From NCBI GenBank assembly GCA_019058445.1, contig JAHPZA010000006.1, positions 864,001 through 928,000 of the forward strand: a stretch of 64,000 nucleotides of DNA. The letters run 5' to 3'. The position numbers and the translations under genes are program-made. Source of the DNA: Promethearchaeota archaeon (lineage in GTDB: Archaea; Asgardarchaeota; Lokiarchaeia; Sigyniarchaeales; SOKP01). Positions 12,341 through 14,094 of the stretch are shown one piece after another. Positions within the stretch are counted from its first letter, which is position 1; each line of letters opens with the position of its first letter. A model generated the notes under the pieces. The model saw only the letters and a list, made by a program, of their open reading frames with translations. It ran no database searches and had not been told where the DNA came from.

Positions 12341-14094
12341 TTATTTTCGTAAAAGTTTCTTGTCAACCTTTCCAACAGCAGTCAATGGGAGCTCTTCTAT
12401 GATTTTAATTTTCTTCGGGACTTCATATGGAGCACATTGCTCCTTTGCAAATACAATGATACTTTCTTTTAACGCCTCTTCATTTCCGTCATATTCATAG
12501 TTAGGGTCTAGCTGAATATAGGCATTTACAATTTCAGAGCCCGGGCGATCGGGATTCGGTTCACCTATTAGTGCCATACTTCCAATCGCAGGATGTTTGG
12601 TTAATGTGTCTTCTACCTTAGATGAGAAAACTTTGAAACCCCCTACAATTATCATATCCTTGGTACGGTCTACAATACGTATATATCCATCCTCATCCAT
12701 CATTCCCACATCACCGCTGTGCATATATCCATCCGCATCAATCGCTTTTTTGGTTTCTTCAGGTTTGTTGTAATAACCCTGCATGACTAATGGACCTTTT
12801 ACGCAAATCTCTCCAGCTTCTCCCAAGGGTACTGCTTTTCCAGTTTCTGGATCAACAATCTTTAAGTCAACATTCTGAATAGGCATTCCAACTGTACCTA
12901 ATTTTCTTTCTCCTTTCGAAGGATTCATTGTTGCAACGGGGGACAGTTCGGTCATTCCGTATAATTCCAATAATTTTCCCTTTCCTACTATACTTTCTAA
13001 TTGTATCTGAGATTCGATGGGGAAAGGAGATGCTGCAGAAATACAGACTTCTAAAGTTGAGTGATCCAACCTTTTGAATTTTTTGAAATTTATTAGAATC
13101 TGATATAGGGAAGGTACATTCACAAGTCCAGAAGGTTTGTACTGTTTAATTTGATTACATATGGACAAAGCGTTTCGTGGGTCCTGCATTAGACGAATCG
13201 TCTTAATTAATCAGGCACGAGACACTGGGTCCAACCCAGATAAATAAAACTCTCACAAACAGTTAAACCTGCAATATGGAAGAAAGGAAAACCTGATAAT
13301 GCTGTTCCCACTCCCCATTCCCAATTAAGCCATGACCGAATAGACATAATGTTAGAAATTGTATTTCTATGGCTTATCATTGCTCCTTTGGGAGGTCCTG
13401 TGGTGCCTCCAGTATATTGAATAAATGCAATATTGTCGGGAGAAATCTCTACATTCGGCGGATCAGTTGGATATTTTGCAAAAACGTCATCATGAATATC
13501 TAATACAGTTTTTCCCTCTAAAGGTGTGACTTCTCCCGAAGGAATTTCCTGAACAGCTTTAATTTTTTCCTGTTGTTCTTTTGGAAAGATCCCAATAACG
13601 CTGGTGGTTAAGACAAGTTTTAATTGAGGGCATTTCGAAGCGATTTTAACCAATCTTCCCGCAAAAATTGCATCTAAAGTTATCAATGCAACATTTTTTC
13701 CACCCTCTCCTAAGTCGTTTATTTGGTATTGCATTTGAATCTCCGACATGAGAGGAGAAACTCCTGAAAGGATACATCCTGCTCTCAATATACCTACGAG
13801 GGCAATAACATATTCTGGAATATTAGGTAAATTTACTGCTACAACATCCCCTTTTTTAAATCCATGGTCAATTAATGCATTTGCTAACGAATTTGCGTAT
13901 TTATCCAGCTGCCCATATGTAACTTCTAAACCTTGAAATGCTAAAGCAACTTTATCGGGAACTTCTTTAAATGTCCGTTCTATTCCTTTTACATATGTGG
14001 TGTCGAATTCCTTTGGATCGATATCGTGAACATCAGAATCCCAATTTTTTTTCCAAAAACGGCTAGCATAAATTTCTTCTGCCATATTTATCAC
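12341..14094 (-). CDS. Long-chain acyl-CoA synthetase (AMP-binding), two segments: 14094-13210 and 13180-12341
   Basis: YTGGTTGPPKG and PFFHIAG in the first segment; YGMTE, GEICVKGP, GYYN, SGD, DRTKD and GKVDKK in the second; removing 29 nt joins LVPD-PRN into about 574 aa. Confidence 0.9.
13181..13209 (-). other. Candidate 29-nt bulge-helix-bulge (archaeal-type) mRNA intron
   Basis: UCGUG-CCUG-AU^U...CAGG-AC^C-CACGA; canonical cut sites restore the frame. Confidence 0.75.

What the first reader, a model, noticed from the sequence alone, without database searches (positions are those of the whole stretch)
13169..13226. Candidate bulge-helix-bulge mRNA intron in an Asgard-type acyl-CoA synthetase gene
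Seen: the ligase is split into two out-of-frame ORFs by a 29-nt insert. The mRNA reads AGUGUC-UCGUG-CCUG-AUU-[AAUUAAGACGAUUCGUCUAAUG]-CAGG-ACC-CACGA-AACGCU. This gives an exon-exon helix (UCGUG/CACGA, extending to 10 of 11 pairs), a 3-nt bulge (ACC), a 4-bp central helix (CCUG/CAGG), a 3-nt bulge (AUU) and an intron hairpin (AUUA/UAAU and GACG/CGUC, opening with an A.G mismatch). Established: archaeal tRNA splicing endonuclease (EndA) cuts after the 2nd nucleotide of each bulge and RtcB ligates; such mRNA introns are known from few genes, chiefly crenarchaeal cbf5. Applying that rule removes exactly 13181-13209 and gives GUG CCU GAU|CCA CGA AAC (VPDPRN), one intact ~574-aa enzyme. The intron starts with the in-frame UAA, so unspliced mRNA is truncated. 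Both halves keep their catalytic motifs with no other lesion. Inference: this is a spliced protein-coding gene rather than a pseudogene, and possibly a splicing-controlled switch on fatty-acid activation, reminiscent of IRE1/HAC1-XBP1 unconventional splicing. I know of no description of this in an Asgard metabolic gene but cannot search.
Basis: partly seen in the sequence, partly recalled or inferred. Interest (0 to 1): 0.95.

Follow-up and report, generated by a model that had tools for sequence, protein, structure and literature searches.

The report
tRNA-type intron in Asgard ligase gene
A 29-base insert that breaks a fatty-acid-activating enzyme gene of an Asgard (Promethearchaeia/Lokiarchaeia) archaeon folds into the shape cut by the archaeal tRNA-splicing enzyme. 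It is very probably a recently gained intron in a protein gene, one of dozens in this genome, although no RNA data yet show it spliced.

Summary
On the minus strand, a FadD-type acyl-CoA ligase gene (14085..12341) is interrupted by 29 nt (13209..13181). Removing them gives a 571-aa protein that matches the intron-less orthologues of two sister species (90% identical) residue for residue at the junction.

The insert and its exon flanks form an h-B-H-B-h' motif. The cut sites predicted by that motif are the ones that restore the frame. It is the top-scoring frame-restoring BHB candidate in the 4.6-Mb genome.

The exon codons are rare synonymous choices that build the exon-exon helix: 10 of 11 pairs, against 5-6 in the orthologues (P about 6e-4). 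dN/dS on this lineage is about 0.06, so selection is not relaxed.

The same genome carries canonical BHB inserts in single-copy essential genes:
- aIF2-gamma, where the insert splits the P-loop;
- gyrB, where a 30-nt insert sits at one site in five species with compensatory changes.

EndA and RtcB are both present. A paralogous ligase 14 kb away has its own 30-nt BHB insert three codons upstream.

No RNA-seq contig covers the junction, so splicing is inferred, not shown. The idea of a regulatory switch has no support.

The scan had already flagged such introns elsewhere in this genome. No paper describing them in Asgard mRNAs was found.

The parts
13210..14085 (-). Exon 1 of the FadD-type acyl-CoA ligase gene (292 codons, ATG at 14085; an upstream GTG at 14094 is also possible)
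   Evidence: ORF listing. PF00501 positions 2-238. NCBIfam long-chain-fatty-acid-CoA ligase profiles, N part.
13181..13209 (-). 29-nt BHB-type intron. It starts with an in-frame UAA and contains the hairpin AUUA-A-GACG / CGUC-UAAU and the strand CAGG of the central helix.
   Evidence: Sequence. Absent from the orthologues G008 and G002. BHB-constrained fold -25.8 to -26.6 kcal/mol.
12341..13180 (-). Exon 2 (279 codons plus stop 12343-12341)
   Evidence: PF00501 positions 248-384 plus PF13193. NCBIfam C part abuts the N part in the profiles.
13212..13215 (-). Exon strand (CCUG) of the 4-bp central helix; pairs with the intron's CAGG at 13183-13186
13209..13211 (-). 5' bulge AU|U; predicted cut between 13210 and 13209
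   Evidence: BHB geometry. The cut gives GAU|CCA = D|P, as in the orthologues.
13180..13182 (-). 3' bulge AC|C; predicted cut between 13181 and 13180
13216..13226 (-). 5' strand of the exon-exon helix (AGUGUC-UCGUG), built from rare synonymous codons CAG UGU CUC GUG
   Evidence: 10 of 11 pairs in G000 against 6 and 5 in the orthologues; P = 6e-4 under synonymous resampling
13169..13179 (-). 3' strand of the exon-exon helix (CACGA-AACGCU), codons (C)CA CGA AAC GCU
   Evidence: AGA->CGA and AAU->AAC relative to both orthologues.

Best explanation
The 29 nt at 13209..13181 (minus strand) are an archaeal bulge-helix-bulge intron in the pre-mRNA of a FadD-type long-chain-fatty-acid-CoA ligase. The host is a Promethearchaeia (Lokiarchaeia-type Asgard) MAG.

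Proposed mechanism:
1. In the transcript, exon 1 (UCGUG, extended by AGUGUC) pairs with exon 2 (CACGA, extended by AACGCU).
2. Exon-1 CCUG pairs with intron CAGG to form the 4-bp central helix.
3. The intron's own hairpin closes the motif. This presents two 3-nt bulges on opposite strands.
4. The tRNA-splicing endonuclease EndA (gene at C9:770346-770843) cuts after the second nucleotide of each bulge, at AU|U and AC|C.
5. RtcB (C1:114713-116020) joins the exons to GAU|CCA. The result is a 571-aa enzyme identical at the junction to the intron-less orthologues. Unspliced RNA stops at the UAA that opens the intron.

The intron is young. It is absent from sister species whose protein is 90% identical. 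It is one of dozens of such introns in this genome, so removal is most likely constitutive.

What is shown: the sequence, the fold prediction, exact frame and sequence restoration, exon codon adaptation, purifying selection, presence of the enzymes, and conservation with covariation of a sister intron in gyrB.

What is inferred: that EndA cuts here, that RtcB ligates, and that the spliced mRNA is translated.
For: 1. Excising exactly these 29 nt reproduces GWTQCLVPDPRNALSICNQ, as in the intron-less orthologues of G008 and G002. About 35 further homologues from relatives and metagenomes are uninterrupted at this site.
2. The BHB rule alone predicts those cut sites. This is the top-scoring frame-merging BHB in the genome. 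Its constrained energy is -26.6, the second best of all 26-35-nt candidates.
3. The exon codons are rare synonymous choices (CAG, CUC, GUG, CGA, AAC) that build the helix: 10/11 pairs against 6/11 and 5/11 in the orthologues, P = 6e-4. 0 of 3000 synonymous resamples reach the observed energy.
4. dN/dS is 0.057 against G008 and 0.073 against G002, low in both halves. The G000 dN branch (0.0345) is close to its sisters (0.0295 and 0.0285). There is no other lesion and all catalytic motifs are present.
5. The cell must remove such inserts.
   - Single-copy aIF2-gamma carries a canonical 29-nt BHB insert inside GHVDHG|KTT.
   - Single-copy gyrB carries a 30-nt one.
   - Single-copy eS26 is also interrupted.
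6. The gyrB insert is at the same site in five species. Its length is always 30 nt, 92% of cells are paired against 29-54% in slid controls, and six pairs show compensatory changes, two of them in the exon-exon helix.
7. Across the genome, frame-restoring BHB candidates exceed the four decoy phases: 7 against 0 at E <= -24, and 12 against 3-4 at E <= -22.
8. EndA and RtcB genes are intact. Asgard EndA is reported to be the broad-specificity (alpha-beta)2 type (PMC5829648).
9. The Logan contigs of a second sample (X2, recorded as probable DNA) cover the region, and no 29-nt deletion is reported.
Against: - There is no direct RNA evidence. The only metatranscriptome contigs found are short or about 93% identical, and they do not reach the junction.
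- The 5' half is not textbook. An A.G mismatch abuts the AUU bulge, and the unconstrained MFE pairs AUU with AAU instead.
- The intron is unique to this genome, so it has no covariation of its own. A very recent insertion would not yet show decay.
- Only one EndA gene was detected with Pfam. The subunit type in this genome was therefore not established here.
- The gene has about 30 paralogues, so its loss would be tolerable.
Confidence: 0.8

Rival explanations
1. Recent insertion pseudogene. A short hairpin-forming insert landed in one of about 30 ligase paralogues and inactivated it. The BHB-like fold is incidental and the RNA is not spliced.
For: - The insert is absent from every relative examined.
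- The family is highly redundant, with 31 matches in G000.
- A homologue in G033 is truly truncated at the same region, with no C half within 12 kb.
- No RNA evidence exists.
Against: - The predicted cuts restore the orthologous sequence exactly.
- Exon synonymous sites are adapted to the helix (P = 6e-4; 0 of 3000 resamples).
- dN/dS is about 0.06 with no acceleration.
- Identical architecture occurs in essential single-copy genes and is conserved across species.
Confidence: 0.1
2. Programmed translational bypassing, as in T4 gene 60 or yeast mitochondrial 'byps'. The ribosome takes off at GAU, which is followed by UAA and a hairpin, and lands on the GAC that ends the insert. This makes the same protein without RNA splicing.
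For: - The take-off codon GAU and landing codon GAC are read by one tRNA-Asp.
- A stop codon and a hairpin follow the take-off codon.
- The paralogue has AUU...AUU repeats at its borders.
Against: - Sister inserts in the same genome have no matched codons (gyrB: GUA...UAA).
- Others split a codon, so only RNA joining can recreate it: ChlI GA|A, Acs G|AU, aIF2-gamma GGU A|AA.
- The precise 4-bp/3-nt bulge geometry and the exon-exon covariation are irrelevant to bypassing.
Confidence: 0.03
3. Split gene. The two halves are made as separate polypeptides, the second starting at the AUG inside the insert (13189-13187), and they reassemble.
For: the ORF listing finds an ATG-initiated 282-aa ORF starting inside the insert.
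Against: - The break lies in the middle of the N-terminal AMP-binding domain (profile position about 240 of 384), not at the hinge between the domains.
- No such start exists in the paralogue or in the other interrupted genes.
- No intron-less relative is split here.
Confidence: 0.03
4. Assembly or sequencing artefact. The 29 nt are not in the organism's DNA.
For: The genome is a metagenome-assembled genome (context). Raw reads were not inspected.
Against: - Contigs of a second sample (X2) cover the bin at depth about 3 with no indel reported.
- Structured inserts of the same kind recur in many genes and in independently assembled relatives.
Confidence: 0.02

Closest known systems
cbf5 pre-mRNA intron of Crenarchaeota (Watanabe et al. 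2002, FEBS Lett 510:27; Yoshinari et al. 2006; Yokobori et al. 2009, PMC2738675)
   Same: A short BHB intron inside a protein-coding sequence. It is removed by the tRNA-splicing endonuclease and an RNA ligase, its distribution is patchy with gains and losses, and the host has a hetero-oligomeric, broad-specificity EndA.
   Different: Here the phylum is different (Asgard) and the gene is an ordinary, redundant metabolic gene. The intron was gained very recently and is not shared with species 90% identical. It is one of dozens per genome rather than a single case. Splicing here is predicted, not demonstrated.
Haloferax volcanii HVO_1309 5'-UTR BHB intron (PMC7714728)
   Same: An mRNA substrate of EndA with a BHB motif, shown there in vivo and in vitro.
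   Different: That intron lies in the untranslated leader and does not interrupt a reading frame. It is a single case in its genome.
[quoted passage not shown]
   Same: The same motif (h-B-H-B-h'), a similar length range, the same enzymes, and repeated lineage-specific gains at sites able to fold into a BHB. This genome also has intron-rich tRNA genes.
   Different: The host RNA is an mRNA. The exon helices must be built from codons, which is visible here as biased synonymous codon choice.
IRE1-dependent HAC1/XBP1 unconventional splicing (eukaryotes)
   Same: Non-spliceosomal cleavage at stem-loops of an mRNA, ligation by a tRNA ligase (RtcB in metazoa), and a small frame-changing intron.
   Different: The nuclease (IRE1) and the recognition motif are different, and that splicing is stress-regulated. 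Nothing here indicates regulation.
Translational bypassing elements (T4 gene 60; Magnusiomyces mitochondrial byps)
   Same: A short untranslated insert with a stop codon, a hairpin and matched flanking codons in this particular gene.
   Different: Sister inserts in this genome lack matched codons or split codons, and they obey BHB geometry.

Membership tests
Archaeal bulge-helix-bulge (BHB) intron | Two 3-nt bulges on opposite strands separated by a 4-bp helix | tested here: met
   CCUG/CAGG lies between AUU and ACC. The RNAfold centroid agrees. The MFE offers a near-isoenergetic competitor that pairs AUU.
Archaeal bulge-helix-bulge (BHB) intron | Flanking helices on both sides (strict hBHBh' form: at least 2 bp adjacent to each bulge) | tested here: inconclusive
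   The exon-exon helix h is strong: 5 contiguous pairs, 10 of 11 in all. The intron helix h' opens with an A.G mismatch before 4+4 bp. The 5' site is therefore relaxed (hBH-like), which is acceptable for (alpha-beta)2 EndA according to PMC5829648.
Archaeal bulge-helix-bulge (BHB) intron | Cutting after the 2nd nucleotide of each bulge yields a functional joined RNA | tested here: met
   The predicted cuts remove 29 nt and give VPD|PRN, identical to the intron-less orthologues. The profile halves abut.
Archaeal bulge-helix-bulge (BHB) intron | Host encodes the splicing endonuclease EndA and the ligase RtcB | tested here: met
   PF01974 plus PF02778 in one 203-aa frame at C9:770346-770843. PF01139 at C1:114713-116020, 574 bits. 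The subunit type (alpha4 or alpha-beta) was not resolved.
Archaeal bulge-helix-bulge (BHB) intron | Structure maintained by selection (covariation or compensatory change) | tested here: met
   This intron has no orthologous copies, but its exon codons are adapted to the helix (P = 6e-4; 0 of 3000 resamples). The sister gyrB intron shows six compensatory pairs across five species.
Archaeal bulge-helix-bulge (BHB) intron | Spliced RNA, or excised (often circular) intron, observed; cleavage by EndA in vitro | not testable with these tools
   The RNA runs X10 and X13 do not cover the junction. No cultured strain or enzyme assay is available.
ANL superfamily, FadD-type long-chain-fatty-acid-CoA ligase | AMP-binding N domain plus AMP-binding_C, with motifs A3 (TGGTTGxPKG), A5 (YGxTE), A7 (SGD), A8 (GGxxV) and A10 (GK) | tested here: met
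   PF00501 plus PF13193. The best NCBIfam hits are long-chain-fatty-acid-CoA ligase models, below the equivalog cut-offs because only halves were scored. The motifs are read in the translation. Substrate was not tested.
Programmed translational bypass element | Matched take-off and landing codons in every instance | tested here: not met
   Met in this gene (GAU/GAC) but not in gyrB, ChlI, Acs or aIF2-gamma of the same genome.

The most novel reading that the evidence does not exclude
This Promethearchaeia genus is undergoing an ongoing invasion of protein-coding genes by EndA-spliced BHB introns: dozens per genome, many lineage-specific. Two independent gains lie 9 nt apart in paralogous ligase genes. 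That would imply a site-directed insertion route, for example reverse splicing into mRNA followed by reverse transcription and recombination. It would also mean that the closest archaeal relatives of eukaryotes already live with widespread mRNA splicing that shapes codon usage around splice sites.
Probability: 0.3. Interest if true: 0.9.

Novelty: new member of a known kind. Interest (0 to 1): 0.75.

Why it matters
Until now, BHB introns inside archaeal coding sequences rested on essentially one gene, cbf5 in Crenarchaeota, plus one 5'-UTR case in Haloferax.

Here an ordinary metabolic gene of an Asgard archaeon carries one. The same genome carries them in aIF2-gamma, gyrB, eS26, acetyl-CoA synthetase (twice), CODH, a chelatase and others.

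If splicing is confirmed, three things follow:
- Protein-gene splicing by the tRNA machinery would be routine in a lineage close to the eukaryotic stem.
- Gene callers would systematically mis-annotate these genes as pseudogenes or split ORFs, which affects metabolic reconstructions of Asgard MAGs.
- This ligase pair is absent from 90%-identical sister species and has visible codon co-adaptation. It would be a rare natural snapshot of intron gain in a protein gene.

Tried and rejected
1. RNA evidence. Two run searches and one read-laying run found four metatranscriptome runs from one study with shares of 0.07-0.10. Their contigs lie at L025 1360-1612, 15219-15468 and 17004-17403, are short or about 93% identical, and do not reach the junction at L025 15681-15709. 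This gives no verdict on splicing.

2. First genome-wide BHB scans.
   - A strict helix rule missed real cases such as gyrB.
   - A central-helix-only rule and a constrained-energy rule requiring 100 aa on each side were swamped by adjacent operon genes and showed little excess over decoy phases.
   - Only the 26-35-nt scan with relaxed ORF lengths gave a clear excess.
   - One scan timed out.
   - The candidate list still holds false positives. An example is C9+613163-613196, where the 'intron' encodes the GatA motif GSDTGGSI.

3. Search for the intron in relatives. It was not found in 40 relatives' genomes, 22 metagenome loci or 15 species-representative genome loci. No covariation test on this intron itself is therefore possible.

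4. The G033 homologue, with a frame that ends at the same region, proved to be a real truncation and not an intron.

5. Literature. Six searches found Asgard tRNA-intron papers but nothing on Asgard mRNA BHB introns. The library is incomplete, so this is not proof of novelty.

6. A words search of earlier notes for a ligase intron returned only unrelated T-box findings.

7. The regulatory-switch idea. I found nothing to test it with, and the housekeeping targets argue for constitutive splicing.

Full report
**What is there**

The gene lies on the minus strand. A stop-to-stop frame from 14118 to 13207 ends ...GWTQCLVPD-TAA. A second frame from 13210 to 12341 reads ...DPRNALSICNQ... to the stop.

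Pfam puts the first piece on AMP-binding profile positions 2-238. It puts the second on positions 248-384 plus AMP-binding_C. NCBIfam's FadD-type long-chain-fatty-acid-CoA ligase models show the same picture, for example PRK05677 at 4-283 and 286-552. This is one gene interrupted by 29 nt, 13209..13181 (TAATTAAGACGATTCGTCTAATGCAGGAC). Removing them gives a 571-aa protein with every ANL catalytic motif and no other lesion.

**The structure**

- The RNAfold centroid and a fold constrained to the BHB geometry give the h-B-H-B-h' motif. The energy is -19.1 kcal/mol unconstrained (z = -2.6) and -25.8 to -26.6 constrained.
- Two blemishes exist. The intron helix opens with an A.G mismatch next to the 5' bulge. 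The unconstrained MFE pairs that bulge (AUU) with AAU.
- Asgard EndA is reported to be the (alpha-beta)2 type with the L1 loop, which accepts relaxed motifs (PMC5829648).

**Is the excision the right one?**

The closest orthologues, in two sister species of the same genus (G008 and G002, 90% amino-acid identity), have no insert. They read GWTQCLVPDPRNALSICNQ. The cut sites predicted from RNA geometry alone therefore restore the orthologous protein with no residue gained or lost.

About 35 further homologues are all uninterrupted here. They come from 40 relatives' genomes, 20 metagenome loci and 14 species-representative genomes. The records that carry names are Promethearchaeia or Promethearchaeota MAGs, which confirms the Asgard assignment.

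**Evidence that the structure is selected**

The exon flanks differ from both orthologues only at synonymous sites, and nearly every difference creates a pair:
- G008: CUU GUA CCA GAC|CCA AGA AAU GCU.
- G000: CUC GUG CCU GAU|CCA CGA AAC GCU.

G000 has 10 of 11 exon-exon pairs. The orthologues have 6 and 5, with none contiguous from the bulge. Resampling synonymous codons under the genome's own codon usage gives at least 10 pairs with P = 6e-4. None of 3000 resamples reaches the observed constrained energy. G000 achieves this with minority codons (CAG, CUC, GUG, CGA, AAC).

Selection on the protein is intact:
- dN/dS is 0.057 against G008 and 0.073 against G002, low in both halves.
- The G000 dN branch (0.0345) is close to its sisters' (0.0295 and 0.0285).

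**Evidence that the organism removes such inserts**

I checked leads from earlier notes of this scan and ran my own scans.

- aIF2-gamma is single copy. It carries a 29-nt insert at C4:384841-384869 inside the P-loop. Cutting at the BHB sites (AUGG/CCAU helix, bulges UA|U and AA|A) restores GHVDHG|KTTLVQ. The unconstrained MFE is the BHB itself.
- gyrB is single copy. It carries a 30-nt insert between GLEGV and RKRPAMYIG, with helix GGCG/CGCU and bulges UA|A and AA|A.
- The gyrB insert is at the same site in five species of the genus and absent from the others. Its length is always 30 nt. Its sequence differs between species. The central helix is kept through G-C/G-U changes. The hairpin and even the exon-exon helix are kept through changes on both sides. 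92% of cells are paired against 29-54% for slid controls, and six pairs are compensatory.
- eS26 is single copy and also interrupted.
- In five other interrupted genes, exon codons favour the BHB fold (P from under 0.003 to 0.005).
- A genome-wide scan looked for 26-35-nt, frame-restoring BHB candidates. At constrained energy <= -24 it found 7 in the true phase against 0 in each of four decoy phases. At <= -22 it found 12 against 3-4. At <= -14 it found 311 against 225-251. This means dozens of real cases.
- The top of the list holds an Fe-S enzyme, this ligase, cooS, acetyl-CoA synthetase (two introns), an OYE-type reductase, a ChlI-type chelatase, gyrB and an EF-2-like GTPase.
- EndA and RtcB genes are intact.
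- ARAGORN finds only 23 tRNA genes, 19 of them with introns. This is the 'heavily interrupted tRNA' picture described for Asgard archaea (PMC11291895; bioRxiv 10.64898/2026.10.13.758758).

**The paralogue**

Fourteen kilobases away, just outside the window (C6:862879-862908 = L025:1380-1409, minus strand), a 61%-identical ligase has its own 30-nt insert: ...GWTQIL|[ATTGAGAGAACATGCGTCTCTCTAGTATAA]|IPNPRD.

- It has a canonical helix AUAU/GUAU, bulges UA|A and AA|A, and a GAGAGA/UCUCUC hairpin.
- Its orthologues in G008 and G003 are uninterrupted.
- The two introns share no sequence and sit three codons apart, so they are separate gains. Why they lie so close together is unexplained.

**Rivals**

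- A recent pseudogene cannot be fully excluded, because the intron is private to this genome and the family is redundant. It would not explain the codon adaptation or the exact geometry.
- Translational bypassing fits this one gene (GAU take-off, UAA, hairpin, GAC landing). It fails for sister inserts that lack matched codons or split a codon.
- A split enzyme and an assembly artefact are both unlikely. The break lies mid-domain, and the Logan contigs of a second sample cover the region without an indel.

**What is missing**

Direct RNA evidence is missing. The only metatranscriptome contigs found do not reach the junction.

The spread of these introns over housekeeping genes points to constitutive removal.

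**Comparison with what is known**

In mechanism this is the cbf5 type of archaeal pre-mRNA intron (Watanabe 2002; Yokobori 2009, PMC2738675). In 2020 that was still described as the only BHB intron reported in an mRNA apart from the 5'-UTR case found in that study (PMC7714728). Six literature searches found nothing on Asgard mRNA BHB introns. The library is incomplete.

I file this intron as a new member of a known kind. The genome-wide abundance and the recent gains are the more novel aspect. This scan had already noted them on other stretches of the same genome.

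Noticed in passing
L025:1380-1409 (= G000 C6:862879-862908, minus strand; about 1.1 kb before the window start): A paralogous FadD-type ligase (61% identical) has its own 30-nt canonical BHB insert, three codons upstream of the site in this finding. The two inserts share no sequence. Its orthologues in G008 and G003 lack it. Two independent gains 9 nt apart are unexplained.
   Followed up: yes
L051:2101-2130 (= G000 C9:608302-608331, minus); same site in L052, L053, L054, L063: Single-copy gyrB has a 30-nt BHB insert between GLEGV and RKRPAMYIG. It is conserved at the same site in five species of the genus, with compensatory changes in the hairpin and in the exon-exon helix. 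It is absent from the other relatives.
   Followed up: yes
L099 region (G000 C4:384841-384869, minus): Single-copy aIF2-gamma has a 29-nt canonical BHB insert inside the P-loop, GHVDHG|KTT. The unconstrained MFE is the BHB motif.
   Followed up: yes
G000 C10:622214-622245 and C10:621766-621795 (minus): The acetyl-CoA synthetase gene appears to carry two BHB introns, of 32 and 30 nt, at WYCTA|DIGWITGHSY and IVDTYW|QTETGG.
   Followed up: partly
G000 C6:752445-752475 (+), C6:396802-396833 (-), C6:165873-165902 (-), C9:269043-269072 (-), C10:684116-684145 (-): Further high-scoring frame-restoring BHB inserts in an Fe-S protein, cooS (CODH), an OYE-type flavin reductase, a ChlI-type chelatase and an EF-2-like GTPase. 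The scan's excess over decoy phases suggests dozens in the genome.
   Followed up: partly
L049 (G000 C6:441732-441953, minus; insert about 441912-441940): The only eS26 gene is interrupted (1 TGA and 1 TAA inside the Pfam match). Both a 29-nt and a 20-nt excision (AGUG/CACU helix) restore the frame. Which one is used is unresolved.
   Followed up: partly
L022:12184-13119 (G033 C1, minus): A homologous ligase in a more distant, higher-GC relative stops being homologous just after GWSQILIVDPP, the same region as the introns. No C-terminal half lies within 12 kb. It looks like a real truncation or rearrangement.
   Followed up: partly
whole genome G000: ARAGORN finds only 23 tRNA genes in 4.6 Mb (92.6% complete), 19 of them with predicted introns. 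This suggests many tRNA genes are too interrupted to be detected.
   Followed up: no
G000 C9:511558 and C9:513015 (minus); C6:1128411 (minus): Two mevalonate-kinase-like genes (GKTILFGE...) and a thioredoxin (…IDIYT[30 nt]…WCGPC) also show short stop-containing inserts. For the thioredoxin I found only a relaxed BHB, with 3 of 4 central pairs.
   Followed up: partly
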